Positions 36,641 through 58,101 of a stretch of DNA of 64,000 nt are shown one piece after another. The notes under the pieces are model-generated. The model was given only the letters and a program-made list of their open reading frames with translations, was not told the DNA's origin and did not search any database. Position numbers and translations under genes: made by a program. The stretch comes from a bacterium (GTDB lineage Bacteria; Acidobacteriota; HRBIN11; JAKEFK01). Numbering within the stretch: the stretch's first letter is position 1; every line of letters begins with the position of its first letter. The stretch lies in the NCBI GenBank assembly GCA_022616075.1, contig JAKEFK010000024.1, positions 572-64,571 on the forward strand. Direction: 5' to 3'.

Positions 36641-36798
36641 GACGCTTGCGCGGCTAAAGAAAGCTTTGCCGCTGTTCGGATGAACAGTACTCATTATTTT
36701 GATGAGAACAATCAATTTTACTTGAGCCATACTTGCTACTACACTTACCCCTCATGTCAAATAATCTCGAAAGAAACGGATAGTTCCATTCACTGTGC

Positions 36799-37295: not shown

Positions 37296-37799
37296 AGTGA
37301 AATCCAAACTTTCGTTAGACAAGTTAGAAGTTGGATTGTTTCTCGGAAAAGCACTAGGGGAACTGCAAAAGCTGTTTGCTTGCTGAGCAAAAGAGGAAGT
37401 GCGATTCGGCCGTCCTGAGAACTTTTTCTTCTTCCGGGTTGATTCTCATCTACTGTTGTCCCGGAATATTGAAGCGCAATTTCCGAATTTCAAGAAATTC
37501 ATTTCACCCCATAATGAAAAACTATCAAACATTTGCGCAACGTCGAGAAAGCGAACTCGTCGGTTTTCCCTACTATTGGGACGCTACTAGTGTCCCCGCA
37601 CCAGAACAACCCGGAGCGTTTCCGGTTCGGCGCGAAGCACTGCAGAACGCACGAGTCAATCCGACGGCATGCAAACAAACTCCAAATTCCATTATGGGAA
37701 TAACCCCTGAACGAAGAGCGTTACGTGAGAATGCGATATATGAGAACCTCCGATGCCAAAGTCGGCCGTAGAAATATGCGCTTTCAATCACCACAAGGA

Positions 37800-38010
37800 T
37801 AGCTGCTTCCTAAATTCCCGTTAGGGTCGCACGGCTCTCCTGCTAGACGTTTTGCACTCCTACCGGCGGGATTTTGGGCACGTGGCGGCCGATCGGGCGC
37901 ACCAGCACCATTTTCCAATTCGCTCACAACATACACAGTTCAAATACCAGAAGAACGATCAGCACGGCCGCTGCGGCGCAGTATGCGATGTATTCCTTCA
38001 TGTCAAATCC
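37800..38010 (-). pseudogene. Remnant of a paralog of the secreted Cys-rich protein at 40354..40857
   Basis: A roughly 45 bp 3' end is near-identical to 40363..40405. A short signal-peptide ORF is followed by HVPKIPPVGVQNV* (compare HIPKIPPAGLQNV in 40354..40857). Confidence 0.4.
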
Positions 38011-38171
38011 TCCGCCGCAGCCTTTATCAACAAACGTGCCAGGAGTCTTATCGACGAGAAGAAGTGCTTCGCGTGTATGTGAGGTCGAAAACTATTGCAT
38101 GTACGGTGAAATCATTTCGACTCGTTACGTTTCTTTTTATGCTTGACGTAACGCATAACGCATGCTTATGA

Positions 38172-38462
38172 TTGGAAATGATCATCAGCTACCGGGACAA
38201 GCGAACCAGAAACTTTGCGGATGGAAAACGAATCAAGTCATTTTCTGGCATTGAGCGTTCGGCGCGTTTGAAGCTTGATCGCCTTGAAGCGGCCATCTCC
38301 TTAAAAGACCTTGCTGCATTGCCCGGTAACTGTTTGGAGGCGCTGTCTGGGGATCGGGAAGGTCAATACAGCATCCGAATTAATGACCGATGGCGGATTT
38401 GCTTTGAATGGCCCGACAAATCTCCCGGCCCTTTAAACGTGGAGATTGTTGATTATCATTAG
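38172..38462 (+). CDS. higB: HigB-like (RelE/ParE superfamily) toxin
   Basis: 96 aa in the plasmid-maintenance killer family, immediately upstream of and overlapping an XRE antitoxin. Confidence 0.75.
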   Translation: MEMIISYRDKRTRNFADGKRIKSFSGIERSARLKLDRLEAAISLKDLAALPGNCLEALSGDREGQYSIRINDRWRICFEWPDKSPGPLNVEIVDYH

Positions 38463-38472
38463 GAGAACCACC

Positions 38473-38775
38473 ATGACAATAACCGCTATTCACCCTGGGG
38501 AACATTTGGCGGAAGAACTCAAAGAGTTAAGGATGAGTGCTGCAGAGTTAGCGCGTCAGCTCGATGTGCCCACGAACAGAATTACCGAAATCCTGAATGG
38601 ACAGCGAGCGATCAGTGCTGATACCGCATTGCGCATGGCACATTTTTTTGGCACGAGCCCCGAGTTTTGGTTGAACCTTCAGAGCATTTATGACCTGCGT
38701 CTGGCGCAAGAGAAAGCCGGCAAAACCATCAAGGAGTTACCGAGACTCAGGCGTCGTGTTACTGCTAAGGTGTGA
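38473..38775 (+). CDS. higA: HigA antitoxin (XRE-family HTH)
   Basis: MTITAIHPGEHLAEELKELRMSAAELARQLDVPTNRITEILNGQRAISADTALRMAHFFGTSPEFWLNLQ. Confidence 0.8.
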   Translation: MTITAIHPGEHLAEELKELRMSAAELARQLDVPTNRITEILNGQRAISADTALRMAHFFGTSPEFWLNLQSIYDLRLAQEKAGKTIKELPRLRRRVTAKV

Positions 38776-38867: not shown

Positions 38868-40142
38868 ATGCATCGCGACTTTCCACTTGATGTGGACATC
38901 CCAATCAAATTCATCGACAGGCGCGTAGAGCGGTTGCGAACGGACCCGAGGTCCGATCTACGGATGGCATTGAACCCAAACATTCATTGCCAGTTTTCAG
39001 TGCCCGATCTCAGTGAAGAGGATGTCTTCCTCGTACGACAATGGTGCACTCAGACGTCGGACCTAGAGCGAAATACTTCCGCCAGAAAGGCGGAAATCAT
39101 CGCGAAGCGTTTTTACGAGAGTTACGGGCTTTCAGTTCGTGATGTTTCAATTACACAGTTACAGACGCAACGTTCTTCCGGAGAGTGGAAGCTTTACGAT
39201 CTGCAGGTGAATGATTCCCCGGTCGACGTGAAAAACTATCGTAGCTTAAGGAGAAGATCATCGCGTTACCGGGAGCATCGAGTGAAGCACTTCAAAAGAA
39301 CCGATCAGGGCTTGGAAATATCAATTGCCGGTGTTGTTTCTCCGTGGACCAATGTGGACGAAATCGTATTCCTGGGCGAGAATACCTTTAGTGAAATAGA
39401 GTCGGTCCGCAAATACTTTCAACAAGGTGATCTACTCACCCTTGATTTTTCTGGAAATGCGATTCACCGCGGAACTCTTTTGCCACCATGGATGTTTGAC
39501 TACCCTTTGCAATGCTACAAGCAACGGATTCAAAGCCTTGAGAGGATGAAGAACAGCAAATTGTTTGATTTTGCTCAGTGGCCAGCATGGGAGTTGAATC
39601 CTTTCGCGATTTCGATTCTCTTACGGCGCGACGTTACAGAAATCCCTGAGATTAGAACCAAGATGGAAGACTGGGAAGTCGAGTATTACAGAGAGCTGTT
39701 CGAAGCATGTAGGCATTGCGGAGTGCTCCTTTCGGTTGTATTTTTCGCCACGCTTCGACATTTTCTAGCAATGTTGCGTTCGTCATATGGCACAAGCGCG
39801 AAATACAGGCCTTCGGACTATCGGAAGTTCCTTTACTTCCATCCGGAATGGGTCCATCCGGTTGGAATCCACGATCCGCTGGGAACAGTATCAGTACTTG
39901 TTTCAACTTTGGATGCCCTTTGGAGAGGTTCTCACTATCTTATAAAAGATTATCGGGATTTTCGTCTCGACGCGATGGGAATTCTAAGAGGCAGGAAGGA
40001 AGCGCAAAAAGATTGGAAGACAATTATTGCTTATTGCGCAAAATGTCCCCGTGACCCACTTCTCCTTTCAGAGGAAACAAGACATTGCAGATATGGAAGA
40101 ATTATTTGCGAGTGTGGGCATTGTTGCTCGGACTGCAAGTAA
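38868..40142 (+). CDS. Hypothetical 424-aa protein with a possible PD-(D/E)xK-like core (YDLQV...VDVK) and a C-terminal Cys-rich zinc-finger-like tail
   Basis: No recognisable family. C-terminal CAKCPRDP...CRYGRIICECGHCCSDCK. Confidence 0.45.
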   Translation: MHRDFPLDVDIPIKFIDRRVERLRTDPRSDLRMALNPNIHCQFSVPDLSEEDVFLVRQWCTQTSDLERNTSARKAEIIAKRFYESYGLSVRDVSITQLQTQRSSGEWKLYDLQVNDSPVDVKNYRSLRRRSSRYREHRVKHFKRTDQGLEISIAGVVSPWTNVDEIVFLGENTFSEIESVRKYFQQGDLLTLDFSGNAIHRGTLLPPWMFDYPLQCYKQRIQSLERMKNSKLFDFAQWPAWELNPFAISILLRRDVTEIPEIRTKMEDWEVEYYRELFEACRHCGVLLSVVFFATLRHFLAMLRSSYGTSAKYRPSDYRKFLYFHPEWVHPVGIHDPLGTVSVLVSTLDALWRGSHYLIKDYRDFRLDAMGILRGRKEAQKDWKTIIAYCAKCPRDPLLLSEETRHCRYGRIICECGHCCSDCK

Positions 40143-40353: not shown

Positions 40354-40857
40354 TCAATCAACGCAAGGATAGCTGCTCCCTAAATCGCCGTTGGAATCGC
40401 AAGGCTTTCCGGCTAAGAACGCATCGAAGCAGGTGCAGTCCTGCCAGTGAAGATAGACATTCTGTAATCCTGCGGGCGGGATCTTTGGGATGTGATTCGT
40501 TATCGGGCTTACATATACCTTGAAGATATTTCCGCCAAGATCACTCATCGCGGTGATCATTCCAAGCCATACTTCTTTCGGCGCGTTCGGATCCCTTCCA
40601 ATATCGCCGCCGAACTTCACATCGCCGCATTTGTAAAATGCCTTTGCGCAGGTTGCTGGTTTATAGAGCTGGATCGTGATGACTCCGCGCGAAGCTGCTA
40701 CAACCGTTCCATAGAGATCAGGACTTCTGTGCGTGAGGGGCGTTGTGCAAACGATTTCCCCGGTTTGCACAATCGCTGCAGCTCCAAAGAAGCAGCAGGT
40801 TAAGTAAAGCAGGATGATTTTCCGTGAAGACTTACATGGAGCGTTTCTATTTCGCAT
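40354..40857 (-). CDS. Secreted Cys-rich hypothetical protein
   Basis: Signal peptide plus 10 Cys residues. C-terminus GKPCDSNGDLGSSYPCVD. Confidence 0.5.
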   Translation of the reverse strand: MRNRNAPCKSSRKIILLYLTCCFFGAAAIVQTGEIVCTTPLTHRSPDLYGTVVAASRGVITIQLYKPATCAKAFYKCGDVKFGGDIGRDPNAPKEVWLGMITAMSDLGGNIFKVYVSPITNHIPKIPPAGLQNVYLHWQDCTCFDAFLAGKPCDSNGDLGSSYPCVD

Positions 40858-41101
40858 ACCCGATTACGAAACTCAAGAACTGTGCCAGCTAAACGCCACG
40901 GCACCTGACTCGGTGGAGATCCATTTGAACGGCCCAAAGGTCGAAGACTTTCTGGGTCGCGGTCGAAAGATTTCGACCCCGACACTCATTTTTGATATGC
41001 GATATCTATGGAATGATATCCACAACGTCGACGTGATCTCTCCCTGACCGACGAAGAAAAGCTGGCCAAGTTCTTGCTTTTACGGTGCCAGAGAGGTTGC
41101 G

Positions 41102-41575
41102 ATGGGTCTGCTTTATTTTGAGCTAACGGGTAACGTTGAATTCTTCAGGCTGCGGGCGATGGAACACGGATTCGATCTGTTGATGGCGCGCACGCCTTAC
41201 GGAATTGCAGGGTTGGGTGAAACGCACGCGATCACCACATTGATTGAGGAAATGCGCGCTGAACCTGCGATGGAGTTCCGCTTTTCTTTGCGCAATCTTT
41301 CCAGCCAATGTCTCAAGGAGCTCGTGGATCTTCACGTTCCGGAAGATGAGCTTCGCTACTACATCGTAACTTCATTAGACATCAAGAACCGCGACCTGCT
41401 CGTTTGTGAAAAGTCGCAAGGGCGATATTTCGTGATCAGACGTCCCAGCAAGAAAGAATGCCAGAACAGAAGCAACGCCCCCATTCTTATCACAAGGGAG
41501 AAAACTCAGTACTTCGCTGAGTTCGGCACTGATTTTGATATCGACCAGGCCGATTTTTCCAGGTTCGCTTTTTAG
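41102..41575 (+). CDS. Hypothetical protein, first gene of a four-gene operon
   Basis: 157 aa with no recognised domain. There is a 9-nt gap to the next gene. Confidence 0.4.
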   Translation: MGLLYFELTGNVEFFRLRAMEHGFDLLMARTPYGIAGLGETHAITTLIEEMRAEPAMEFRFSLRNLSSQCLKELVDLHVPEDELRYYIVTSLDIKNRDLLVCEKSQGRYFVIRRPSKKECQNRSNAPILITREKTQYFAEFGTDFDIDQADFSRFAF

Positions 41576-41584
41576 GGAGTACAT

Positions 41585-43174
41585 ATGATCGATGAAATCC
41601 GTTGTTTGAGATGCAATGCAAGGTTCGAAGAAATCGAATTCTGCAACCACGGTGAGATTGTTTCACCAACGCCGTTTTGCGAGGTTTGCGGCGATTGTAT
41701 TTGCGAAAAAAATGGAGATTCAACAGAAAACCGGCAACTGATGGAAATTTTCTATTCAGGAGTTTCTTCAGAGATCCTTGATGAACTTCCACGAAGGAGA
41801 GAGCATGAAGAAAAACTCCTTTCCATGTTTAGGAACTCGACGCATCCTTTGAGCTCAATTGATCATCTGCGTTCGACCTTCACACCGATCGCAGTGAATC
41901 AAATGCTCCGCTTTATCGTCAATGGAGGCATCCGCCGCTATCTTGTGAAAGCCATAAACGAGGACCTTCTTCCCGCCAGATCTCTTTTTTCGCGATCTGA
42001 GTGTTCCGTATTTCGTACTCATTCTCTTTATCCGATTAAAGTGTTCAATTTCGGCTCGCGAAGCAAAGGGGTCGTTCTTCTTGCTGGAACTGCTCACACA
42101 TTGAAGGGCTTATCCCAGCTTGAGCTTGGAAGAGAGGAAGTAGTTTTTGTGGGGGTTGAACTCAATGAGTCCCCCAAGCTTCTTGTCGATCAGTACCAGG
42201 AAGAGCGCGACTATACTCACGTCCTGCGAGTCTTCCGGGCATGGGTGGAGAGAGTGCGTCCTGAATTTGTCCGTTTTACCGAAAATGGAATTCCGCAATG
42301 CCTGATCGGAAAAAAGTGGGTCAAACCGCAGGGCTTCGATTCCACTGACGAATGGATTTCTGACGCGGAAAGGCTCAAGGATGGTTTTGCAGATTCCAGC
42401 GAGTTTTCATTCCGGTTCACTGGGACAACTGATAACTCCATCATCATGACTGTTTCTCCAACAAGAATCTCTGAAGATTCATTGTGGCCGACGTGCGAAC
42501 GCGTCTGGAAAGAGTTGCTGATCGCGCTTGAAAGAGCATCGGGAATATTGCTTATCGCATCGCACCGTGAGGAAGTGGGTTCTGTGCGCCAGTTCCTCAT
42601 GGATAGACTGAAGGAAAGGTTGGTGGAGTTTTCCGATTTCTCCAACTGGGGAATCGATGGCTCCGACTTTTACGCCGGTAACGTCGTATTTGCCGACCAC
42701 ACTCATCTCAAAACAGATCCTCATGATCTGATCGATCTGTCGCAAAGCGTTCCGGTCATTCTCTTCTACACAGGAATTCATCCTTCTGAGTATCTTCGTG
42801 AGCGGCCGATCCGAAGAAGGTTTGAAGCATGCATCGTCGGGCATTATCTCTTTACGAGTTTTCGCCCGCTCTGCAAATGTGCAGAAGGCGTTTCTTCTCA
42901 CGCAGTAAAAATTGCAAATGGCCGAATTGTTGATGCGGACTTTCTCGAACCAAAGGGCTGCGGACAGTGCTATGACTCCGGTTACCGCGACAAATATCTC
43001 CTGCTGTTTCCATATGAAGCACTGGTTCCGGAACCCGATGGAGATCCCTTTATTGATCAAAAGATGTTTGACGATTTTCTCGGTCTGAAGGTGTTGGATT
43101 TTTTCTACGCCTCGCGGCTGTTCGGCGCCTGTTTGAAAAACCAAACGGTAGTCGCAAGACTCGGATCTGAATGA
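41585..43174 (+). CDS. N-terminal Zn-ribbon protein with degenerate PilB/GspE-like secretion-ATPase features (Walker A lost, C-terminal tetracysteine retained)
   Basis: N-terminus CLRCN...CNHG...CEVCGDC. VLLAGTAHTLKG replaces GPTGSGKT. ILLIASHREE sits at the His-box position. C-terminal CKC...GCGQCYDSGYRDKYLLLFPYE resembles the GspE CxxC...CxxC-tGYkGR motif. Confidence 0.4.
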   Translation: MIDEIRCLRCNARFEEIEFCNHGEIVSPTPFCEVCGDCICEKNGDSTENRQLMEIFYSGVSSEILDELPRRREHEEKLLSMFRNSTHPLSSIDHLRSTFTPIAVNQMLRFIVNGGIRRYLVKAINEDLLPARSLFSRSECSVFRTHSLYPIKVFNFGSRSKGVVLLAGTAHTLKGLSQLELGREEVVFVGVELNESPKLLVDQYQEERDYTHVLRVFRAWVERVRPEFVRFTENGIPQCLIGKKWVKPQGFDSTDEWISDAERLKDGFADSSEFSFRFTGTTDNSIIMTVSPTRISEDSLWPTCERVWKELLIALERASGILLIASHREEVGSVRQFLMDRLKERLVEFSDFSNWGIDGSDFYAGNVVFADHTHLKTDPHDLIDLSQSVPVILFYTGIHPSEYLRERPIRRRFEACIVGHYLFTSFRPLCKCAEGVSSHAVKIANGRIVDADFLEPKGCGQCYDSGYRDKYLLLFPYEALVPEPDGDPFIDQKMFDDFLGLKVLDFFYASRLFGACLKNQTVVARLGSE

Positions 43175-43178
43175 TCTC

Positions 43179-44501
43179 ATGGCACTGGAGCTCAATAGAA
43201 CGCGAACGGCACCGATTACTGTTGTCCTGGTGGGTAGTGATAGGGAGGTTTCTCAAATGGAGCTGGCGAATACGAAAGTGAAAGCATTCCGCTTTACCTC
43301 CGGAGAGGAAGCCTTTGATTGGTGCCGTCGGAATGAGGAAACCTTTTCCCTGGTTATCGTTGGTCCACATACAGATGATATGACCGGAAAGAAACTTTCC
43401 AGGCTGATCAAGCAAGAGGTGGTTATGGATGTAATTCTGATTCTTGAATCGAATGACTCAGAGGAGACCGTAAAAAATCACACTGCCGCAGACATTTTGC
43501 TCTACCCAACAGAGTCGGTTATCGATCTTGTGCGGCAGTACATTGCCAATTACGCCTCTTACGGAAAAGGCGTTCCTGATGCTGAAATCATAATGCCGGA
43601 ATTCGAACAAATTTCGGGCTTGAGTAAAGGCGTCACCCTTAAGGGCTATACTCTTATCAACCTGATTGAATCCGGCGGGATGTCGGCTGTCTGGGAAGCG
43701 TATTCGAACATCAACAAGTCCGAGCGCGTCGCTATTAAGTTTCTTCATTCAACCTGGCTGCAGAGTGCAAGGATTTCGGAGTCGTTTAACCATGAAGCGA
43801 TCCTTCTTTCCAAATTTTCTCACAAGAACATTCTGAAGCTTTTGCTGTCCGGTTGCTGGAATTCTTATCAGTACATGATTCTGCCTTACGTTGATGGAAT
43901 GAGAGGTGACGATCTCTTTTCAGTGATTGAGCCTGCTCGCAGCGAAGTTGTGAGTTTCATTGCCTGTGAGCTCTTCAGCACGCTGGAGTACATTCACAAC
44001 TTTGCTGATGATGGATTGCAGCTGAATGTTCAGCATCGAGACGTGTGTCCGGATAATCTTCTCTTTTCGAAATCCGGATCGATGTTTCTAATCGACTTTG
44101 GAAGCGCGCGATCCGGACTGTTTGAGACCGGCTGCGACATTCGTCCTGTTCGTGAAAGCATCGCAGGGCATCATTTATATAATGCTCCCGAACAACTGGA
44201 CCGTTTTCATCCTCAACACAGTCGGCAATCTGATGTCTATTCTGCAGGTTTGACTTTGTACCGGCTCTTCGTACCCAGGCTCTATGCGGATGAGAATCAA
44301 ATATACGCTGACGTAGGGTCGCGAGCGCTTTATCCCCTTCCGGACAACGTTCCGGAGTATTACTGTGACTTTTTTCAAAAAACCCTCGCGCGGGCGCCCG
44401 AAAATCGCCCGACAGCAGCACACGCGCTCGCTTATATCAAGCGTCACTTTCCGCTTTTACAACAAGACGAGTTTAAAAATTACCTTCGTAATTTTATTTG
44501 A
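43179..44501 (+). CDS. Receiver-like N-domain fused to a Ser/Thr protein-kinase domain with an atypical catalytic loop (HRDVCPDN)
   Basis: Gly-loop/VAIK, HRD, DFG (IDFGSA) and APE (YNAPEQ) motifs. The catalytic-loop Lys is replaced by Cys. Confidence 0.7.
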   Translation: MALELNRTRTAPITVVLVGSDREVSQMELANTKVKAFRFTSGEEAFDWCRRNEETFSLVIVGPHTDDMTGKKLSRLIKQEVVMDVILILESNDSEETVKNHTAADILLYPTESVIDLVRQYIANYASYGKGVPDAEIIMPEFEQISGLSKGVTLKGYTLINLIESGGMSAVWEAYSNINKSERVAIKFLHSTWLQSARISESFNHEAILLSKFSHKNILKLLLSGCWNSYQYMILPYVDGMRGDDLFSVIEPARSEVVSFIACELFSTLEYIHNFADDGLQLNVQHRDVCPDNLLFSKSGSMFLIDFGSARSGLFETGCDIRPVRESIAGHHLYNAPEQLDRFHPQHSRQSDVYSAGLTLYRLFVPRLYADENQIYADVGSRALYPLPDNVPEYYCDFFQKTLARAPENRPTAAHALAYIKRHFPLLQQDEFKNYLRNFI

Positions 44502-46156
44502 GCTGTGAGGTTAGGATGATTGACTACAAAAAGAAGCAGATCGTTCTGGACGTTCTTGAACATCTTCGGGAATTTATCCGGTCTGATAATTTGGCTTTCG
44601 AAATTCATAAAGTCATCAAAGACGTTATGAGTGCTGACAACGTCACGGTGATTTTTGGTGACGATCAAGTTGATCAGTACTGGATCACGAGCCAGCCGGC
44701 AGAGGAACGCGGTGTGAGCTACACAGTTGTGAACAAGGCCAAAGCTGATGACAACGATACAGGCTACTGGTTTGCGGAAGTCGCGGAGCGGAGTAAAACG
44801 AAAAGCCAGATGGACTACGACATGAAATATTGCCTGGCTGCGGTTGTAGACACAGCGTCTGTTGTAGATCGCAGGCTCGGAACAATCTATTGTGATGTGC
44901 GCCGGGGACCGCATCGATACACCGAGCAGGATGCGAGATTCTTGAAGTATCTTGCTGACCACCTTGCTGTGTACTTGGAGTTGGTGATCGCCCGAAGAAA
45001 TTCCGCAAAACTCAGAGACCGGAATGATAAGTTTATGGAACTGCAGAAGCAGAATCCTGCAACTGTTCTAGAACGTCTCGTTGGATTTTCTCCGAAGATT
45101 GTGGAGATCAAAAACGACATCATGACTGTGATTTCATGTGTTGAGGAACCGGTCTTGATTCAGGGTGAAACCGGCACGGGCAAAGGTGTCGTTGCAAAGA
45201 TTATCCACGACCTTTCCTCACGCAGCTCAAAGGAGTTTGTAACAGTTGAGTGCAGCAATCTTCAGAAGGAGCTTGCGTATTCCGAACTCTGGGGGCATAA
45301 GAAAGGCGCTTATTCAGATGCGCGCGAAGGCCGTACCGGCCTTGTGCGAACGGCGCATGGCGGAACGCTGTTTCTTGATGAGATCGGGGACCTGCCTCTG
45401 ATCCAACAGGGAATGCTTCTACGAGTTTTACAGGAGGGTAAGGTTCGACCTTTAGGCGAGGATAGAGAAGAAGTGGTAAATTTCCGGCTGATTTGCGCCA
45501 CAAACCGCAATCTCCACAAGATGGTTCAGGAAGGTAAGTTTCGGGAAGACCTTTACTGGCGCATCAACAAGTTCCCAATTTATCTGCCGCCGCTTCGCGA
45601 TAGAAAAGAAGACATTTCGGTTCTTGCTGACCATTTCGCAAAAACGAAGTCCATTTCTCCAGACGCAATATGCTTGCTCAAAGCACTTCCTCTTACCGGA
45701 AACGTCCGTGAGCTGCAGGACCTCATTGGAATGGCGAAAGCATATGCGAAGTCCATGGAGATTACTCTTAAGGACGTGGAACTTGTTCTTGAAAGATGCA
45801 GTGCGAACTGTGTTGCATATCCCGACAACACTTCTTCTACTGAACCCGTGGATGGAAAAGTGCTCTTAAGCAGAGTCTTTTTGCACCAGTTGAGTTTTCA
45901 AGAACTTCAAGAGATGTGGAACAAGAAACGGATCACCAAAGAACAACTCAGGGCTCTTTTTGATGTTCTTTTTACTGTTACGCGTGGAGCGGTTGCTCCC
46001 ATCGGCCGTAGGCTGGGTATTACTGAGCAGAAGGTTATGGATCAGTTCATCGATTGGGTCGGCTACCTGCGCAAGCAGCGAATCCTGCCGCTGAAGGACG
46101 AGTTTGACTTCCCGGCCCGGATTTCACCTGAATCCCTCGATCAAGCTTTTGTCTAG
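44498..46156 (+). CDS. Sigma54-dependent enhancer-binding protein (GAF-like N-domain, AAA+ core, C-terminal HTH) with variant GAFTGA loop (GAYSDA)
   Basis: Walker A GETGTGKG, SELWGHKKGAYSDA, Walker B LFLDEIGDL, R-finger region, C-terminal HTH. Confidence 0.8.
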   Translation: MSCEVRMIDYKKKQIVLDVLEHLREFIRSDNLAFEIHKVIKDVMSADNVTVIFGDDQVDQYWITSQPAEERGVSYTVVNKAKADDNDTGYWFAEVAERSKTKSQMDYDMKYCLAAVVDTASVVDRRLGTIYCDVRRGPHRYTEQDARFLKYLADHLAVYLELVIARRNSAKLRDRNDKFMELQKQNPATVLERLVGFSPKIVEIKNDIMTVISCVEEPVLIQGETGTGKGVVAKIIHDLSSRSSKEFVTVECSNLQKELAYSELWGHKKGAYSDAREGRTGLVRTAHGGTLFLDEIGDLPLIQQGMLLRVLQEGKVRPLGEDREEVVNFRLICATNRNLHKMVQEGKFREDLYWRINKFPIYLPPLRDRKEDISVLADHFAKTKSISPDAICLLKALPLTGNVRELQDLIGMAKAYAKSMEITLKDVELVLERCSANCVAYPDNTSSTEPVDGKVLLSRVFLHQLSFQELQEMWNKKRITKEQLRALFDVLFTVTRGAVAPIGRRLGITEQKVMDQFIDWVGYLRKQRILPLKDEFDFPARISPESLDQAFV

Positions 46157-46268: not shown

Positions 46269-46724
46269 TTATAAACGCTGCCACCATTGTTTCACTATCT
46301 GCCAAAATCCGGTTTTTCCTTTGTCGGTTTCCGACATCACTCGGGTATCTTCTGCTGCACCCTCGATTGCCATCTCACCGATGTTGAAGTATCTCTCTTT
46401 CTCAGAGCGGTCGTATGCTCTTCCGGCCTCAATCTCGTTTCTAGACCATCGAGCAGCCCAATGAACATTGTTATTCGTTATCCAATAATGAGACTGGCAC
46501 TCGAAGCTCCAGTTCCCGATCGAAGGATGAAGCGAAATCGTCTTGCCATCAAAGATGAGCTTCCAATCCGTTGGTCCCAGCGGAGTAACGACTTCTTTTC
46601 CACAGCCACAGCAGCACTTGTGGACTACGGTTGCATACCTAATCGATATGTAAAGGGTCTCCTTCTCGATATGATCGGGAATAGATTCGACGAATTCATG
46701 TTTAAGAACTCTCTTCCTTCTCAT
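46269..46724 (-). CDS. Prokaryotic E2-like (UBC-fold) protein
   Basis: HPS-x7-C spacing (HPSIGNWSFEC) like the eukaryotic E2 HPN...C signature. Its stop/start overlaps the E1 gene. Confidence 0.5.
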   Translation of the reverse strand: MRRKRVLKHEFVESIPDHIEKETLYISIRYATVVHKCCCGCGKEVVTPLGPTDWKLIFDGKTISLHPSIGNWSFECQSHYWITNNNVHWAARWSRNEIEAGRAYDRSEKERYFNIGEMAIEGAAEDTRVMSETDKGKTGFWQIVKQWWQRL

Positions 46725-47911
46725 TAACGCATGTCTTCATTTGTGAGCAAGTCGCAATCGATCGTATACGTGCTGTGATGTTCACGCTTGAGGTCGCGAT
46801 AAAAGCCAAACAGTTTCTTCCATTTGATGACAGCTAAGGCGGCGTTGAGAGCGTTGAGATCAGCAATCTGGATATTCGTATCATATTGATTGTCTCTACC
46901 ACCATCCGAAAAAGAGATCCTGTTACGAACATGGTCACGCTGTTTCGGCGTGCTGGTCGTGATCCTTAGAATGCCGCCCAATGAATCATCAGTCACATTA
47001 ACACCCATACCGACGTCGATGAACGGAACGCCGCAGTATTCGAGCATTTCCACGATCATCTTTTTTGCCGAGCTGCGATCCAGGCAAAGAAAACCGAAGT
47101 CCATGTTTTGCAGTTCCCCGACATTCCCTGCATCTACATAAACCGCATGATCAATGACACCCCGGTGCATTTTCGAGTACAGACTCTTCAGGTAGACAAC
47201 CTTAGGTGGCTTCGTCATCAGGTCGTCAATCGAAGGAGCGCCCGGGGATCTGAAAGCGTTGTGCTGCAAAAAAGCATCTCCGTCAAAAAGGTGGATTTCC
47301 TTTACAGGGGTCTTAGCAACAAGATCCAGCACGTAACAGCCGGTTCCGCCCAACCCCACGATTGCAATCTTTAGTGGTTCTAGCTTTTTTGCGACGAAGT
47401 CAATTTCGGCCCTGCTTGAAGCGGTATCGATGTAATTGAATACAGTTTCCTCATTCTCTTTATCTGGTTCGATAACGGGAAACGTTTTTGACGTAATCAA
47501 TGGATCGATCAACTGAGCCGGGCCGGATATGATTGCGACATATGTGGTCACTTTAACGTAATAATCCTCATACAATCCGCTCGGCTTGGGCTTCGCTGAG
47601 AACCTGTGTTGGACCACGACGCCCTCAGCGAGGGTGCGGTTTTCACATGAATTTCTGATCTGCTCTATTTCCTTTCCATCCGCATTGCAGGGGTAATCGC
47701 CGACAAAATGAGCAACATGATCCTCAGGACGTGAGGTTATATCGCCCGCCAGGGTTAATGTTGAGACCAGAATTCCGAGCTTTATTTCTTTGCGGGAGTT
47801 TACATACGGAACATCCTTCACGAGTAAATAGCCGGAACGGATTTGGAGATCATAACCCTCGTCGCGCAGCTTTTTCAGGTCAGCGCTATGACTTATCAGT
47901 TTGCGTGACAT
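46724..47911 (-). CDS. ThiF/MoeB-family E1-like activating enzyme with a roughly 180-aa N-terminal extension
   Basis: Rossmann motif IAIVGLGGTGCYVLDLV...HLFDGDAF typical of E1/ThiF. The N-terminal domain is of unknown function. Confidence 0.7.
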   Translation of the reverse strand: MSRKLISHSADLKKLRDEGYDLQIRSGYLLVKDVPYVNSRKEIKLGILVSTLTLAGDITSRPEDHVAHFVGDYPCNADGKEIEQIRNSCENRTLAEGVVVQHRFSAKPKPSGLYEDYYVKVTTYVAIISGPAQLIDPLITSKTFPVIEPDKENEETVFNYIDTASSRAEIDFVAKKLEPLKIAIVGLGGTGCYVLDLVAKTPVKEIHLFDGDAFLQHNAFRSPGAPSIDDLMTKPPKVVYLKSLYSKMHRGVIDHAVYVDAGNVGELQNMDFGFLCLDRSSAKKMIVEMLEYCGVPFIDVGMGVNVTDDSLGGILRITTSTPKQRDHVRNRISFSDGGRDNQYDTNIQIADLNALNAALAVIKWKKLFGFYRDLKREHHSTYTIDCDLLTNEDMR

Positions 47912-48368
47912 TGAAGATCATTCCATCCTTGATCTTAACTTTTCCTCCAGGCATCAACGTACCTTCTAGGTTCGGATGAGGGCCGCCCTCATATGTGATT
48001 GTGAACAAGATGTTCTCTCCGGTCGGCACAGGGTCGAACGCAAGGGCGACGATTTCATTGAACGACAACTCCTTCTTCGTTACGACTTTCTTTCGGCCAT
48101 TTACGATGATCGTGAATTCCTTGCCCTTGGCGGAACCACTGTGGAAATGCTCGCCATCTTTCAGATGGATTATCTCTTGGTCGTTTGGAATAGGCTGATC
48201 TTCTCTATTGCCGGTAACCTCGCGATATAGCACGAGTCCTGGTTCTATATCGCCGAGCTTATATATGGCCTCGCCTATGGTGGGATTTGGCGATACGTGC
48301 AGCTTCTGATCAATATGAATCCTCACCTCATCGTGTTTCTGGTCCGCTTTCGTTTTTTGTTCAGACAT
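47886..48368 (-). CDS. Multiubiquitin-family (tandem beta-grasp) Ubl protein
   Basis: 160 aa with two beta-grasp-like halves. Operon context with E1 and E2. The C-terminus is ...TQTDKS with no GG. Confidence 0.5.
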   Translation of the reverse strand: MSEQKTKADQKHDEVRIHIDQKLHVSPNPTIGEAIYKLGDIEPGLVLYREVTGNREDQPIPNDQEIIHLKDGEHFHSGSAKGKEFTIIVNGRKKVVTKKELSFNEIVALAFDPVPTGENILFTITYEGGPHPNLEGTLMPGGKVKIKDGMIFNVTQTDKS

Positions 48369-48438: not shown

Positions 48439-48894
48439 TCAGTTGTCCTGCTGGCATAACCGCGCCCGCAAGCGTGAAATGAGTGTTCTTGCGCGGCCCA
48501 CCTTTGTTTTGGTCAATTCGTGGTAGGAAAATCCGCGCGCAATAGAAACAAGAAGTCGCCATTCCGCCACGCTCATGTCGCCCCGGAGCTCTGCCAGACG
48601 AAGGCGAGCCAGCATCCGATGTTCTGCATGTGGTTCGAGCTGCTCTTGAAGATATTTACGCTTGAGCCGCGCATGGTTCCGTTCAACCCAGGAGCCGGTG
48701 GAAATGGCCGTGTTGAATTTGCGCTGAAATTCTTCTTGATCTGCGGGAACGCCGGTGGATTCAACGGTCGCCAGCAAGAAGGCGAGACCGTTTTCAATAC
48801 CCCAAGTTCGGTGAGTTACTTTGCCGCAACGCGCGGCCTGTGATTGGTGCTCCGCATAAACGCACCAAGGAAAAGGTAAGTCTTCCATGTTCAT
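48439..48894 (-). CDS. Hypothetical protein with C-terminal sigma70-region-4/LuxR-like HTH
   Basis: ...MSVAEWRLLVSIARGFSYHELTKTKVGRARTLISRLRARL. First gene of the Ubl/E1/E2 transcription unit. Confidence 0.4.
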   Translation of the reverse strand: MNMEDLPFPWCVYAEHQSQAARCGKVTHRTWGIENGLAFLLATVESTGVPADQEEFQRKFNTAISTGSWVERNHARLKRKYLQEQLEPHAEHRMLARLRLAELRGDMSVAEWRLLVSIARGFSYHELTKTKVGRARTLISRLRARLCQQDN

Positions 48895-49086: not shown

Positions 49087-50988
49087 TCAGAAAGTTGTCA
49101 ATTGCGTCGCATAAGTGTCTGACCACTCCTTTCGGAGAAGGTCGAACATCTGCTTCCGCTCAGGATCCTGCTGAGCCATCAAACTCTGCGCCCGAGCTAG
49201 CGACAGGAGCATCAACTGGAGTGCTACTAAAGTCTGCTGCGCACCATTGAATGTCTGCGGCTCGGAGGCATTATTTTCCGCACTTGTAGGAGCACCCTCG
49301 GCGACTCGCGCGTCCAGTGTCAGCGCAGCATTGCTCAACGGCTCGTAAAGCCGTCCGTAAAATGGATGTGCCGTGTTGATCGTCAGAATGATTTTGCCGA
49401 ATCGTTGATCTACATGATAAAACGGCCAGTACTCGTCATGCTTATAATGTATGATGTGCTTCGAGCTCTTAACGCGCTCAAAGGCTTCCTCATCAGTCTC
49501 CATTTCCCGCTTGAGCATCATCGCGAGAGTACGGAGGTTCTCATCGAGCTGCCGCTGTTCCTCCGGAGTGTTCGGCGTAGGCTCGATCAAGGCCTTTGCC
49601 TGGCGAAGCTCGGCCTCATCAGCCTTCATTTCACCGGCGCTTGGCTTGCTTCCATGGCGTATTACCGTCTGCTCGCTTTGATATTTCTTGATCTGCTCGC
49701 GAAGTGCAGTTATTTCTCCAGATAGCGCTTCAGAGATGTCCTGCAGCACATAATCCTTGGGACGAATGCCCTGCTTATTCGCGGCTACTCCGAATGCCTC
49801 GTCCAACTCGCCTGGGAAATCGATCTGGATGCGGAGCCAGTTCGCGTCACTGTGACGCTTCATGATCTCTGGAATCGTTCCGATGAAAACCTCGCGGTCG
49901 TTCCGCAAAACAGAGACCGTATTGTCGTCGTATAGGTGCAGGTCGTTTTTGCGAACCTTGAGAGGAAGCGCTCCCCAATCTGAGATCGGCAGGGCGTAGA
50001 GGCGAATAGTGACGGGTGCACGCTCGACGTTTTCCGATTCCTGACTGTGGTTTTCGCTCCGCTTCACTTGGATGACCTTAGAAAAAACTACCCGGCTTTC
50101 TTTCACTCTGATCTCAGGAATTCTGGTGTGCCGAGCAGAGACCATGGAGTATGTCGGATCGAAAGGCTCTACCAGCCGATTATTCACGTAGAGTTTTGTG
50201 CCTTTTGCAAGCGCGCGGCGATAGACACGGGACATCTCTTTGATCGCATGCTCACACAGCGTCCGAGCTTTCGCAAAAGTGAGCCGGTCGCACAACGGCA
50301 AATAAACGATCGTACCTGACTTCCCGAGCCTATCCTTGAGTTCGTCCACATCTTGCGCAAAAAGCGACTGCTCGTTTCGATCGGGAAAAGAGAGTGCTTT
50401 CGTCAAAATATCAGAGACCTCACTCGGCAGCAGGTCCATAAGAGTAGGGTCTGGCAGCTCGATGAGGTTTGATTTTTCCTTTCCGATGGCTTCGACATCG
50501 AGGGTCATATTGTAATAGGCTCCCGATTCCTGCCATGAATAAATGTCAAGAATCGGACTCATGCTGAGCGCCGCAGTTTTCATGCCCATGCCGAAGCGCC
50601 CGATGCCGGAACGGTTGTCAAAGACCATGGAACCGCCGAACGATGTTGCGAATTTTAGGACATTGGGTGCCATCCCGTTGCCGTTATCGAGTACCAAAAT
50701 ATTTGTCTGGTAAGCGCCTTTCTTACCAGTCTGGCTAAAATAGACGCGAACTTCGGTGGCGCCCCACTGGATAGCGTTGTCAATATGCTCGCACAACGCA
50801 GACGTTGTGCTGTTATAACCGACATCGCGCAAAGATCTGATGAGTGTTTGCCCGAAAAAGAGCGGTACGGTCGCCTTTTCCTTGATGATCCGATTCAGTA
50901 CAGTCTTCCCGCCGCGCGGGGCATTCTCGCCCCAAACTGGGGTTTGAGCATCAGCTTCCGACGAGGTGGGAGTATTTTGTTCTAGCAT
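49087..50988 (-). CDS. GHKL/MORC-like ATPase (HATPase_c_3 Bergerat fold) with long coiled-coil C-terminus
   Basis: EHIDNAIQWGATEVRVYF, VLDNGNGMA and GRFGMGMK motifs. The start at 50988 has an AGGAGA RBS. Confidence 0.7.
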   Translation of the reverse strand: MLEQNTPTSSEADAQTPVWGENAPRGGKTVLNRIIKEKATVPLFFGQTLIRSLRDVGYNSTTSALCEHIDNAIQWGATEVRVYFSQTGKKGAYQTNILVLDNGNGMAPNVLKFATSFGGSMVFDNRSGIGRFGMGMKTAALSMSPILDIYSWQESGAYYNMTLDVEAIGKEKSNLIELPDPTLMDLLPSEVSDILTKALSFPDRNEQSLFAQDVDELKDRLGKSGTIVYLPLCDRLTFAKARTLCEHAIKEMSRVYRRALAKGTKLYVNNRLVEPFDPTYSMVSARHTRIPEIRVKESRVVFSKVIQVKRSENHSQESENVERAPVTIRLYALPISDWGALPLKVRKNDLHLYDDNTVSVLRNDREVFIGTIPEIMKRHSDANWLRIQIDFPGELDEAFGVAANKQGIRPKDYVLQDISEALSGEITALREQIKKYQSEQTVIRHGSKPSAGEMKADEAELRQAKALIEPTPNTPEEQRQLDENLRTLAMMLKREMETDEEAFERVKSSKHIIHYKHDEYWPFYHVDQRFGKIILTINTAHPFYGRLYEPLSNAALTLDARVAEGAPTSAENNASEPQTFNGAQQTLVALQLMLLSLARAQSLMAQQDPERKQMFDLLRKEWSDTYATQLTTF

Positions 50989-51369
50989 TTCGATTCTCCT
51001 GTTTTGTGACCACCGGCTGTTCGGGGTCAGAGTCGAGAGCATAATGGCTCTCATTAAATAAGTAGTTGAAAACGCCCAAAAGTTACATTGTGGCCAGAAA
51101 TCGCGTGGAATTTTAGAAGTTTGATCGTTATTGTAAGAATGAGTGACAACGGTTTTCTGCGCGACTGATTCAATCTTTCGATAACGTCTCACGCATTTTG
51201 CTGCAGCCCGAGCGCATTTATGATTTCCGTTGCAATTCTTGTTTTCTCTTTGCTGTTGGAATCATATCCCAGACGAAAGTCTCGGAAATCATTATCTCCG
51301 GAATAAGGACCATAGACTCCACCGTTTGGGGAAGGTACTTCGTAACACAGCCCATTCTTCGAAGCTCCT

Positions 51370-52473: not shown

Positions 52474-52479
52474 TTGTTT

Positions 52480-53061: not shown

Positions 53062-53130
53062 CTTCTTATTATTACCTCGTATCGGTAATAAAATTACCAG
53101 CAAATTACCATTCTGTCAATGGCTCCCCGC

Positions 53131-53190
53131 ATTGCTGCACTTTATTCCGGATTGCTCGACTTTATTCTGCGTTGCCGCGCGGTTTATTCC
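53131..53190. repeat. Three tandem 20-bp direct repeats (ATTGCTGCACTTTATTCCGG / ATTGCTCGACTTTATTCTGC / GTTGCCGCGCGGTTTATTCC)
   Basis: Exact 20-bp periodicity, in the 400-bp non-coding gap between brxL and the 52480..53061 operon. Confidence 0.7.
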
Positions 53191-58099: not shown

Positions 58100-58101
58100 C
58101 T

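What the first reader, a model, noticed from the sequence alone, without database searches (positions are those of the whole stretch)
41102..46156. Intact four-gene operon: unknown protein, Zn-ribbon/degenerate PilB-like pseudo-ATPase, REC-like/Ser-Thr kinase, sigma54 activator, all with altered catalytic or contact motifs
The genes are separated by no more than 10 nt. The 529-aa protein keeps PilB/GspE hallmarks: the C-terminal tetracysteine CxC…CxxC, a GYRDKY-type box and a His-box-like ILLIASH. It has lost the Walker A P-loop and gained an N-terminal C4 zinc ribbon. The kinase has HRDVCPDN instead of HRDxKxxN and a receiver-like N-domain. The enhancer-binding protein has GAYSDA in place of GAFTGA. 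The neighbourhood is full of frameshifted genes, yet these four are all open. That argues for selection on a regulatory module built from catalytically modified parts. Kinase plus sigma54 EBP plus secretion-ATPase-like components recalls T6SS or type IV pilus post-translational control, but no structural genes are nearby. It faces the Ubl operon convergently.
Basis: partly seen in the sequence, partly recalled or inferred. Interest (0 to 1): 0.65.

Follow-up and report, generated by a model that had tools for sequence, protein, structure and literature searches.

The report
Sigma-54 regulatory cassette with dead secretion-ATPase
A very rare, conserved four-gene switch (unknown small protein, a secretion-motor ATPase relic with no ATP-binding loop, an atypical protein kinase, a sigma-54 activator) that has its own sigma-54 promoters and, in related DNA from other samples, sits beside conjugation genes carrying the same promoter type, so it probably regulates a mobile element.

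Summary
The four tightly packed intact ORFs are real (41102-46156, + strand) and under purifying selection (dN/dS 0.10-0.19 for the three genes that could be tested). The kinase and the sigma-54 activator are confirmed. The 529-aa protein matches no Pfam model. However, its predicted structure hits almost only GspE/PilB/PilT/DotB/VirB11 ATPases (Foldseek E down to 1e-7), its C-terminal Zn knuckle aligns to GspE/PilF, and the Walker A loop is absent in all seven family members. The "pseudo-ATPase" reading is therefore supported.

- All seven known loci keep the same gene order and a GG-N10-GC sigma-54 promoter 13-25 nt upstream of the first gene.
- A second promoter type (TGGCACA-NN-T-N-TTG) points the other way. 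It faces a small secreted protein gene in the window, and TrbC/VirB2-VirB4 type IV secretion genes or SSB in relatives.
- Paired palindromes lie between the two promoters.

GAYSDA is specific to the window; three orthologues have GAFTGA, so it is not a hallmark of the system. Best reading: an autoregulated sigma-54 control cassette of a conjugative element family, present here without its T4SS, at the edge of a defence island. The signal and the kinase substrate are unknown. The family is very rare and I found no description of it.

The parts
40354..40857 (-). Gene E: divergent 167-aa secreted Cys-rich protein with an N-terminal signal peptide. It is the probable output gene of the cassette in this window.
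   Evidence: ORF, no Pfam hit. Homologues sit at the same divergent position in L001, L002 and L003. dN/dS is 0.125 against L002.
40872..40887 (-). Sigma-54-type promoter TGGCACAGTTCTTGAG, reading towards gene E. The -12 element is TTGA rather than TTGC.
   Evidence: The pattern TGGCACA-NN-T-N-TTG occurs only 7 times in 264 kb of strand sequence. All 7 are on the strand divergent from the cassette: upstream of E (window, L001, L002, L003), of TrbC (L001, L006) and of SSB (L005).
40939..40983 (.). Paired or overlapping palindromes (GGTCGAAGACTTTC / GAAAGATTTCGACC, core TCGAAAGATTTCGA). They are a candidate enhancer (UAS) for the activator, about 105 bp upstream of the + promoter and about 72 bp upstream of the - promoter.
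   Evidence: The core palindrome is unique in the 64-kb window. Paired dyads occupy the equivalent position in L001 (TGCTGAAATCAGCA x2), L002, L003 and L006 (TGTCTGAAAATTTCAGACAA x2). Binding by the activator is inferred, not shown.
41063..41078 (+). Sigma-54-type promoter TGGCCAAGTTCTTGCT (GG-N10-GC), 23 nt upstream of the ATG of gene A.
   Evidence: GG-N8-TTGC lies within 60 nt of the first gene's start in 7 of 7 loci. The background rate is 3e-4 per position, giving p about 0.014 per locus and about 5e-10 for five independent lineages. No sigma-70-like site is found in the intergenic region.
41102..41575 (+). Gene A: 157-aa protein with no detectable domain. It is always the first gene of the cassette.
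   Evidence: No Pfam, NCBIfam or PDB match. Only 6 database relatives, all from cassette loci. dN/dS 0.10-0.12.
41585..43174 (+). Gene B: 529-aa protein. It has an N-terminal Cys-rich zinc module (aa 7-40), a helical region, a GspE/PilT/VirB11-like two-domain fold with a degenerate nucleotide site, and a GspE-type tetracysteine knuckle (aa 430-471).
42539..42583 (+). Degenerate Walker A position in B: SGILLIASHREEVGS where GspE has GIILVTGPTGSGKS.
   Evidence: Family alignment shows no GxxGxGK[ST] in any of the 7 members. The correspondence comes from the colinear low-stringency hhalign and the beta-strand/helix order in the model.
42872..42997 (+). Tetracysteine zinc knuckle of B: C430-x-C432 ... 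C459-xx-C462-xx-SGYRDKY.
   Evidence: These Cys residues are invariant in the family. The top PDB profile hits are Thermus PilF at exactly this motif (E 0.26). hhalign to the GspE profile gives E 1e-5 to 1.6e-6.
43179..44501 (+). Gene C: 440-aa protein with a pseudo-receiver domain (about aa 12-125) and a Hanks-type kinase domain (aa 158-418).
   Evidence: Pkinase E 2.4e-30; PknA/StkP/PknB are the top PDB hits. The N-domain profile hits the DrrB receiver at E 5e-4, with the phospho-acceptor Asp aligned to an invariant Gly (FSLVIVG, nt 43344-43364). VAIK Lys, HRD Asp, Asn, DFG and APE are kept. The catalytic-loop Lys is Cys or Asn in all orthologues (HRDVCPDN, nt 44034-44057).
44498..46156 (+). 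Gene D: sigma-54 enhancer-binding protein with GAF-like N-domain, AAA+ domain and a probable C-terminal HTH. The likely true start is ATG 44516.
   Evidence: Sigma54_activat E 1.4e-58 and AAA_lid_14; NtrC1/FleQ/NifA/PspF structures at E 1e-56 to 1e-41. The N-domain profile hits GAF domains (6uv8 E 1.3e-6, 1ykd E 9e-4). Walker A GETGTGKG and Walker B LFLDEIGD are intact. The GAFTGA position reads GAYSDA (nt 45305-45322), whereas orthologues have GAFTGA.

Best explanation
This is a self-contained, sigma-54-dependent regulatory cassette that belongs to a rare family of conjugative (T4SS-bearing) mobile elements.

Shown:
- The operon A-B-C-D is preceded in every known locus by a -24/-12 (GG-N10-GC) promoter.
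- A second, very uniform -24/-12-type promoter points the other way. It faces a small secreted protein gene (E) in the window. In relatives it faces TrbC/VirB2-VirB4-type conjugation genes or an SSB gene.
- Paired palindromes sit between the two promoters.
- D is a GAF-AAA+ sigma-54 activator.

Inferred mechanism:
- D binds the palindromes and uses ATP hydrolysis to open sigma-54 RNA polymerase complexes at both promoters. It thereby activates its own operon (positive feedback) and the divergent transfer or secreted-protein genes.
- A, B and C form the signal-input layer that gates D. C is a Hanks-type kinase with a non-phosphorylatable receiver-like domain. B is a catalytically dead descendant of a GspE/PilB/VirB11-type traffic ATPase that has kept its zinc knuckle and gained an N-terminal zinc module. 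B most plausibly acts as a scaffold or sensor, for example reporting T4SS or envelope state or binding a ligand, and not as a motor.

In this window the cassette, with E, both promoters and the palindromes, is intact and under purifying selection. However, no T4SS genes are within reach. It lies at the left edge of a genomic island that carries HigBA, a Ubl/E1 operon and BREX.
For: Gene order:
- The order is conserved in all 7 known loci.

Promoters and palindromes:
- The sigma-54 promoter upstream of gene A is present in 7 of 7 loci, about 5e-10 by chance over five lineages.
- The divergent promoter family is found only at E, TrbC and SSB upstream regions.
- Paired palindromes lie between the promoters in 5 loci, and the window's core is unique in 64 kb.
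- No sigma-70-like promoter is in the intergenic region.

Activator D:
- It has an intact AAA+ domain with Walker A and B and a GAF N-domain.
- Orthologues have GAFTGA. Natural GAYTDA, GAFSGA and GAFTDA activators have sigma-54 regulons (PMC4641369).

T4SS context in relatives:
- L001: TrbC E 2.6e-15, TraG/VirB4-type P-loop E 1.7e-9, TrbL/VirB6-like.
- L006: TrbC, VirB4-like, SSB, RecT, RepB-primase-like.

Protein B:
- There is no Walker A in the family.

Selection:
- dN/dS is 0.10-0.19 for A, B, C and E.
Against: - No experiment, no transcription start sites, and no proof that the host encodes sigma-54 (rpoN is not in the window).
- The divergent promoter has TTGA/TTGG instead of the canonical -12 TTGC in 6 of 7 cases. 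That is unusual for sigma-54 promoters.
- In the window the promoter ends only 14 nt before E's ATG, implying an almost leaderless mRNA.
- Binding of D to the palindromes is only inferred. No Pfam HTH was detected in D's C-terminus.
- The T4SS link rests on two loci (L001, L006) plus an SSB in L005. The window clade (window, L002, L003) shows no T4SS genes in the sequence available.
- The roles of A, B and C are guesses. The kinase lacks the catalytic-loop Lys and might be inactive.
Confidence: 0.6

Rival explanations
1. An anti-phage or anti-plasmid defence (or abortive-infection) system. The Ser/Thr kinase is the effector or sensor, as in Stk2/PD-T4-6 or the MADS kinase. The activator switches on a toxic or protective output (gene E) on infection.
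For: In this window the cassette lies in a defence island: HigBA, a Ubl/E1 operon, an MzaB-like GHKL ATPase, IrrE-HTH and BREX. The kinase domain hits PADLOC mad6 (E 3.7e-37) and PD-T4-6 models. The activator's AAA+ domain hits RtcR_PspF2 models.
Against: The PADLOC hits are generic kinase and AAA+ domain similarities, and no PADLOC model matches A or B. In other lineages the cassette sits beside T4SS, SSB and RecT genes, and its promoter type precedes those genes; that fits element self-regulation better. Mobile islands routinely carry defence cargo, so co-location is weak evidence.
Confidence: 0.15
2. An orphan remnant of a degraded conjugative element. It is still transcribed and autoregulated but has no remaining function beyond expressing itself and gene E, and is on its way to decay.
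For: No T4SS genes lie within 41 kb to the left or 18 kb to the right in the window. A frameshifted second copy of E's 3' end at 37784-37912 points to past rearrangement. GAYSDA is a window-specific change in a key loop.
Against: All five genes, both promoters and the palindrome are intact. dN/dS is 0.10-0.19 against L002 and L003 at dS 0.6-1.2, which indicates long-term purifying selection in this clade. L002 has the cassette at the same chromosomal site next to the arginase-family gene, so the arrangement has been stably inherited.
Confidence: 0.15
3. An ordinary chromosomal signal-transduction operon (kinase plus sigma-54 activator) controlling a host function such as envelope or secreted-protein production, unrelated to mobile elements. 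B would be an independent zinc-binding protein of a different fold.
For: Kinase/activator pairs are common in sigma-54-rich soil bacteria (general knowledge). B has no Pfam hit, and sequence-level similarity to GspE is limited to about 23-56 residues.
Against: Every locus with enough flank shows mobile-element genes (TrbC, VirB4-like, SSB, RecT, TSCPD, HTH_17). The family is absent from 185,579 GTDB species representatives, which fits a rare accessory element. The Foldseek hit list for B is almost exclusively traffic ATPases.
Confidence: 0.08

Closest known systems
GspE/PilB/PilT/VirB11(DotB, HP0525, TrbB) secretion ('traffic') ATPase superfamily
   Different: There is no Walker A (SHREEVGS in place of GPTGSGKS) and no recognisable Walker B or catalytic Glu. 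About 35 residues between the His box and the Zn knuckle are deleted. It has an extra N-terminal Cys-rich zinc module and no Pfam T2SSE hit even at E<=1. It is encoded in a regulatory operon, not among the structural genes. It should not be filed as a T2SSE-family ATPase; it is a probable non-catalytic derivative.
GAF-domain sigma-54 enhancer-binding proteins (NifA, NorR, FhlA class)
   Same: It shares the GAF-like N-domain + AAA+ sigma-54 interaction domain + C-terminal region architecture. NCBIfam NorR and NifA models are among the best hits. GAF structures match the N-domain. Sigma-54 promoters and upstream dyads lie nearby.
   Different: It scores far below every equivalog cut-off, for example RtcR 280 against 650 and NorR 262 against 476. 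No HTH_8 was detected. The window copy has GAYSDA. It is partnered with a Hanks-type kinase instead of NifL, NO or formate sensing.
PilS-PilR / sigma-54 control of type IV pilin genes
   Same: A sigma-54 activator drives a pilin gene from a -24/-12 promoter. Here a TrbC/VirB2 conjugative pilin gene carries the cassette's promoter type in L001 and L006.
   Different: There is no histidine kinase, and the activator has a GAF domain instead of a receiver domain. The pilin is of the T4SS (VirB2) type, not type IV pilin. The comparison rests on my knowledge of PilR and was not tested here.
T6SS threonine-phosphorylation pathway (PpkA/PppA/Fha1) and T6SS sigma-54 activators (VasH, Sfa2/3).
   Same: A Hanks-type kinase and a sigma-54 activator are associated with a secretion apparatus.
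   Different: No FHA protein, PP2C phosphatase or T6SS gene is found in any of the seven loci. The apparatus linked here is a conjugative T4SS.
Defence kinases Stk2/PD-T4-6 and MADS MAD6
   Same: The kinase domain scores best against these PADLOC models and the NCBIfam MAD6 model.
   Different: The NCBIfam MAD6 score is 105 against a cut-off of 460. The similarity covers only the generic kinase domain. The partner genes are different.

Membership tests
Secretion ATPase superfamily (Pfam T2SSE PF00437; GspE/PilB/PilT/VirB11) | Significant match to the family sequence profile | tested here: not met
   No Pfam hit for B at E<=1 and no NCBIfam hit. hmmsearch of the family profile against PDB gives PilF only at E 0.26.
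Secretion ATPase superfamily (Pfam T2SSE PF00437; GspE/PilB/PilT/VirB11) | Walker A P-loop GxxGxGK[ST] | tested here: not met
   No such motif in any of the 7 members. The equivalent segment is SHREEVGS / TMRNDAAV / TNRQDAPY and similar.
Secretion ATPase superfamily (Pfam T2SSE PF00437; GspE/PilB/PilT/VirB11) | Walker B / catalytic Glu, Asp box and His box | tested here: inconclusive
   A His-box-like GH(Y/F)L strand and an invariant D351 (possibly the Asp box) are colinear with GspE in a low-confidence alignment. No GE(I)RD Walker B is recognisable.
Secretion ATPase superfamily (Pfam T2SSE PF00437; GspE/PilB/PilT/VirB11) | N2 (PAS-like) + RecA-like C-terminal domain fold | tested here: met
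GspE/PilB subfamily | C-terminal tetracysteine zinc-binding motif | tested here: met
   C430, C432, C459 and C462 are invariant. They align to the GspE and PilF motif (prob 82-90%).
Bacterial enhancer-binding proteins (sigma-54 activators, PF00158) | AAA+ sigma-54 interaction domain with Walker A/B | tested here: met
   E 1.4e-58. GETGTGKG and LFLDEIGD are present. NtrC1, FleQ and PspF structures match.
Bacterial enhancer-binding proteins (sigma-54 activators, PF00158) | GAFTGA sigma-54 contact loop | tested here: inconclusive
   The window has GAYSDA. Orthologues in L001, L005 and L006 have GAFTGA. Natural variants GAYTDA, GAFSGA and GAFTDA are reported as compatible with sigma-54 regulons (PMC4641369). 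The triple variant itself is untested.
Bacterial enhancer-binding proteins (sigma-54 activators, PF00158) | Cognate -24/-12 promoters with upstream activator sites | tested here: met
   Conserved GG-N10-GC sites flank the cassette in all loci. Paired palindromes lie 70-125 bp upstream. Function has not been shown.
Bacterial enhancer-binding proteins (sigma-54 activators, PF00158) | C-terminal DNA-binding HTH | tested here: inconclusive
   No Pfam HTH_8 hit. There is a conserved C-terminal segment with an HTH-like pattern (GRRLGITEQKV, aa 503-513).
Hanks-type Ser/Thr protein kinases (PF00069) | Kinase domain with VAIK Lys, HRD Asp, Asn, DFG, APE | tested here: met
   Pkinase E 2.4e-30. The motifs are located.
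Hanks-type Ser/Thr protein kinases (PF00069) | Catalytic-loop Lys (HRDxKxxN) | tested here: not met
   HRDVCPDN (window, L003), HRDICPDN (L001), HRDVNPTN (L006). Activity cannot be tested with these tools.
Response-regulator receiver domain (PF00072) | Receiver fold with phospho-acceptor Asp | tested here: not met
   The profile of the N-domain hits receiver domains (DrrB E 5e-4), so it is receiver-like. However, the acceptor Asp aligns to an invariant Gly, and the Pfam score of 13.9 is below the cut-off of 30.2. It is a pseudo-receiver.
Conjugative T4SS-bearing mobile element (ICE/plasmid) | T4SS, relaxase/coupling protein and integrase genes in the same element | tested here: inconclusive
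   Relatives carry TrbC/VirB2, VirB4-like, VirB6-like, SSB, RecT and a primase-like gene. The window has none of these, and no relaxase or integrase was seen in any locus fetched.

The most novel reading that the evidence does not exclude
A previously undescribed decision switch for conjugative transfer. A fossil VirB11/GspE-type traffic ATPase with a dead nucleotide site, an extra zinc module and a retained zinc knuckle has been recruited as a sensor or scaffold. Together with a small partner protein and a pseudo-receiver Hanks-type kinase, it gates a GAF-type sigma-54 activator. That activator drives its own operon in a positive feedback loop, and drives the element's T4SS, SSB and secreted-protein genes from a dedicated, unusually uniform -24/-12 promoter family. 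In this genome the switch has been uncoupled from the T4SS and retained with one secreted protein as its output.
Probability: 0.3. Interest if true: 0.7.

Novelty: new variant of a known kind. Interest (0 to 1): 0.55.

Why it matters
Control of conjugative transfer genes by sigma-54 and an enhancer-binding protein did not turn up in my literature searches.

A traffic-ATPase descendant that has lost its P-loop yet stays under strong purifying selection inside a regulatory operon would be an example of a molecular motor re-used as a signalling part.

The cassette is compact: two promoters, one palindromic site and five genes. It offers a directly testable sigma-54 circuit with positive feedback, the kind of design that gives on/off (bistable) behaviour in mobile elements.

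Its extreme rarity limits its general importance. There are seven known family members among about 15 billion proteins, and none in 185,579 reference genomes, 72,556 plasmids or 50,697 phages.

Tried and rejected
- Pfam, NCBIfam, PADLOC and PDB sequence searches of A and B gave nothing significant.
- The first AF2 run, with 4 sequences, was unusable (pLDDT 45). The 7-sequence run was used instead.
- hhalign of the B family against E. coli HofB alone was insignificant (prob 1.8%).
- Profile-profile comparison with a 16-sequence GspE alignment did not extend beyond the 23-residue knuckle at normal stringency. The colinear extension at mact 0.05 is only a lead.
- The AFDB Foldseek library was unavailable.
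- Scans of GTDB genomes (two scans), plasmids and phages found no relative.
- The source contig could not be looked up, so the organism remains 'bacterium'.
- Rfam found no RNA family in the window.
- A general search for the sigma-54 consensus over the whole window is not enriched over shuffles (38 against 30.4 +/- 5.3). The evidence lies in position and cross-locus conservation, not in counts.
- I rejected the T6SS and type IV pilus analogy because no such genes are present in any locus.
- I rejected 'GAYSDA marks a sigma-54-independent activator' because the orthologues have GAFTGA and sigma-54 promoters flank the operon.
- Palindrome-like sites upstream of the T4SS promoters in L001 and L006 were not convincingly similar to those next to the cassette.

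Full report
**Observation.** The window has four co-directional ORFs at 41102-41575 (A, 157 aa), 41585-43174 (B, 529 aa), 43179-44501 (C, 440 aa) and 44498-46156 (D, 552 aa). The spacers are 9 nt, 4 nt and a 4-nt overlap. D more probably starts at ATG 44516, behind a GAGG Shine-Dalgarno, which makes the last spacer 14 nt.

The genes are real and constrained. Against the orthologous loci L002 and L003 (77-88% amino-acid identity, dS 0.6-1.2), dN/dS is 0.10-0.12 for A, 0.12-0.19 for B, 0.11 for C and 0.125 for the divergent gene E. D could not be tested this way, because those two contigs end before or just inside it and the comparison with L001 is saturated.

**Known parts.**
- C has a Hanks-type kinase domain (Pkinase E 2.4e-30; PknA, StkP and PknB are the best solved relatives).
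- A profile of C's N-terminal 140 residues hits receiver domains (DrrB E 5e-4). The phospho-acceptor Asp aligns to a Gly that is invariant in the family, so this is a pseudo-receiver.
- The kinase keeps the VAIK Lys, HRD Asp, Asn, DFG and APE. It lacks the catalytic-loop Lys in every orthologue: HRDVCPDN, HRDICPDN or HRDVNPTN.
- D is a sigma-54 enhancer-binding protein (Sigma54_activat E 1.4e-58; NtrC1, FleQ, NifA and PspF structures). Its Walker A and B are intact and its N-domain is GAF-like (6uv8 E 1.3e-6, 1ykd E 9e-4).
- D falls far below every NCBIfam equivalog cut-off, so it is not RtcR, NorR or NifA.

**GAYSDA.** Orthologues of D in L001, L005 and L006 carry canonical GAFTGA. GAYSDA is therefore a change in the window's lineage, not a property of the system. 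In Desulfovibrio vulgaris, natural activators with GAYTDA, GAFSGA, GAFTDA and GAFSEA are assigned sigma-54 regulons (PMC4641369, read). Each of the three substitutions thus has a working natural precedent. The triple combination itself is untested.

**Protein B.**
- *Sequence.* B has no Pfam, NCBIfam or PADLOC hit. The family is tiny: four proteins in the 5.8-billion-cluster search and three more in an exhaustive HMMER scan of 1.84 billion representatives.
- *Conserved residues.* The seven-member alignment shows an invariant N-terminal Cys cluster, an invariant R-x-S-G before a hydrophobic strand, and invariant C430, C432, C459, C462, G466 and Y467.
- *PDB and GspE comparisons.* The family profile's best PDB matches are Thermus PilF chains, aligned exactly on the tetracysteine motif (E 0.26). 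hhalign against E. coli GspE, and against a 16-sequence GspE/HofB profile, gives 82-90% probability for the same knuckle.
- *Predicted structure.* With seven sequences AlphaFold gave a medium-quality model: mean pLDDT 65.5, with most 10-residue blocks at 70-88 over residues 70-420.
- *Colinear alignment.* A low-stringency hhalign is colinear with GspE:
  - SGILLIASHREEVGS pairs with GIILVTGPTGSGKS (Walker A).
  - FEACIVGHYLFT pairs with VQASLTGHLVLST (His box).
  - A deletion of about 35 residues follows, and then the zinc knuckle.
  - Only the knuckle is statistically supported.
- *Nucleotide site.* No member has a GxxGxGK[ST] loop.

I conclude that B is a non-catalytic derivative of a GspE/PilB/VirB11-type traffic ATPase with an added N-terminal zinc module. 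It resembles the family in fold and in the zinc motif, but it fails the family's catalytic definition and its sequence profile. It should not be annotated as a T2SSE ATPase.

**Protein A.** A has no detectable relative outside the cassette loci.

**Synteny and context.**
- All six other loci that carry a B homologue have the same order: small protein, B, kinase, activator. This holds as far as each contig reaches.
- In L001 (B 43-45% identical) the divergent strand carries a homologue of the window's gene E. After it come TrbC/VirB2 (E 2.6e-15), an 81-aa gene, a 1113-aa VirB4/TraG-type P-loop protein (E 1.7e-9) and a TrbL/VirB6-like protein.
- In L006 (35% identical) the divergent strand carries SSB, an 81-aa gene, TrbC and a VirB4-like protein. 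RecT, TSCPD and a RepB-primase-like gene lie downstream.
- L005 has SSB, TSCPD and an HTH_17 gene.
- The cassette is therefore part of a rare conjugative element family. It is absent from 185,579 GTDB species representatives, PLSDB plasmids and INPHARED phages.

**Promoters.**
- *Upstream of gene A.* A GG-N10-GC element with a TTGC(A/T) -12 box lies 13-25 nt upstream of the first gene's start codon in all seven loci. Examples are the window's TGGCCAAGTTCTTGCT at 41063-41078, L001's TGGCTCCCTTCTTGCT, L005's TGGTGTAATCCTTGCA and L006's TGGCTAATGACTTGCT. From the measured background rate (3e-4 per position), the chance of this is about 0.014 per locus and about 5e-10 for five independent lineages.
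- *Divergent promoter type.* A second type, TGGCACA-NN-T-N-TTG, occurs only seven times in the 264 kb of strand sequence examined, always on the divergent strand. It is found upstream of E in the window (40872-40887), L001, L002 and L003. It is also upstream of TrbC in L001 and L006 and upstream of SSB in L005.
- *Palindromes.* Paired palindromes lie between the two promoters: 40939-40983 in the window, with a core TCGAAAGATTTCGA that is unique in 64 kb. Equivalent dyads occur in L001, L002, L003 and L006. In the window they are about 105 bp and about 72 bp from the two -24 elements, a typical enhancer geometry for sigma-54 activators.
- *No sigma-70 site.* No sigma-70-like promoter is found in the intergenic region.

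**Mechanism.** Shown: the parts, their conservation, and the promoter and dyad arrangement. Inferred: D binds the dyads and activates sigma-54 polymerase at both promoters. This produces positive autoregulation of A-B-C-D and expression of the divergent genes, which are T4SS and SSB genes in relatives and gene E here. By analogy with NorR and NifA (established knowledge), the GAF domain probably keeps the AAA+ ring inactive until a signal arrives. A, B and C are the candidates for delivering that signal. C may phosphorylate D, B or A, if it is active without the catalytic-loop Lys. B may serve as a docking or sensing module derived from the T4SS's own ATPase. These last steps are speculation.

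**Situation in this window.**
- The cassette lies at the left edge of a genomic island.
- The close relative L002 has E and the cassette about 400 nt from the end of the same arginase-family gene (92% identical). In the window, 3.7 kb lie between them. This stretch holds a GGACT-like ORF, a frameshifted remnant of a second E copy at 37784-37912, HigBA and a 424-aa Cys-rich protein.
- To the right are the convergent DUF6527 / DUF6791-ThiF / Multiubiquitin operon, a GHKL ATPase, an IrrE-HTH pair and a BREX cluster.
- No T4SS gene is in the window. Here the cassette is either uncoupled from its original targets or controls genes beyond the 64 kb.

**Rivals.**
- *Defence function.* The island context and the PADLOC kinase and AAA+ hits suggest it. 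Those hits are generic, though, and the T4SS-linked promoters in other lineages argue for element self-regulation.
- *Decaying remnant.* The purifying selection and the intact regulatory DNA argue against it.
- *Ordinary host operon.* The mobile-element context of every sufficiently long locus, and the absence from reference genomes, argue against it.

**Novelty and interest.** The components D and C are new members of known kinds. B and A are undescribed families. The combination of a sigma-54 activator, a pseudo-receiver kinase, a dead traffic ATPase and dedicated -24/-12 promoters on conjugation genes did not turn up in the literature I could search. I rate it a new variant of a known kind (a sigma-54 regulatory module). 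Interest is moderate to high, tempered by the lack of experimental data, the medium-quality structure model and the extreme rarity of the family.

Noticed in passing
window 37784-37912 (- strand); also 38026-38041 (-): A frameshifted remnant of a second copy of gene E, covering the C-terminal ~45 aa (82% nt identity over 62 nt to 40354-40415). A sigma-54-like site, TGGCACGTTTGTTGAT, lies about 115 nt upstream. This suggests a past duplication or insertion that split an older E copy.
   Followed up: partly
L002 3-198 vs window 36461-36656: The related contig L002 carries the end of the same arginase-family gene (92% aa identity) only about 400 nt from gene E. The cassette therefore occupies the same chromosomal site in two organisms. 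The window has gained about 3.3 kb there: a GGACT-like ORF, the E remnant, HigBA and a 424-aa Cys-rich ORF at 38868-40142.
   Followed up: partly
window 46269-48368 (- strand): A convergent three-gene operon: DUF6527 (151 aa), DUF6791 + ThiF E1-like (395 aa) and Multiubiquitin (160 aa). It is a bacterial ubiquitin-like conjugation operon of the defence-associated type. A 151-aa unknown gene at 48439-48894 lies upstream of it.
   Followed up: no
window 49087-63943 (- strand): Defence-island cargo. It comprises a 701-aa HATPase_c_3 (MzaB-like GHKL ATPase), an IrrE/M78 peptidase with HTH (51370-52473), and a BREX cluster. The BREX genes are brxL (53500-55548), pglZ (55538-58099), a pglX-like methylase (58102-61848), a RiboL-PSP HEPN gene (61845-62705) and the C-terminal part of brxC, which runs off the window.
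   Followed up: no
window 2460-3483; 5022-5504; 6479-7320: Split genes: a zinc alcohol dehydrogenase in two overlapping frames, and beta-lactamase-family fragments. They are either real pseudogenes or assembly errors of the metagenome-assembled genome.
   Followed up: partly
window 38172-38775 (+): A HigB-like toxin (96 aa) and HTH antitoxin (109 aa) pair, immediately left of the 424-aa unknown ORF.
   Followed up: no
window 40857-40887; L002 and L003 equivalents: In the window, L002 and L003 the divergent promoter 16-mer ends exactly 14 nt before the ATG of gene E. This implies an almost leaderless transcript, or a different start codon.
   Followed up: no
L005 2809-5797; L002 3414-4738: In contigs L005 and L002 the kinase is split by a frameshift, and in L005 the activator is split as well. 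These are either sequencing errors in low-coverage metagenome assemblies or decaying copies of the cassette.
   Followed up: no
P0004 (L001 10001-11605): JGI names this B homologue 'ribosomal protein L31', presumably because of the N-terminal CxxC zinc ribbon. This is a misannotation.
   Followed up: no
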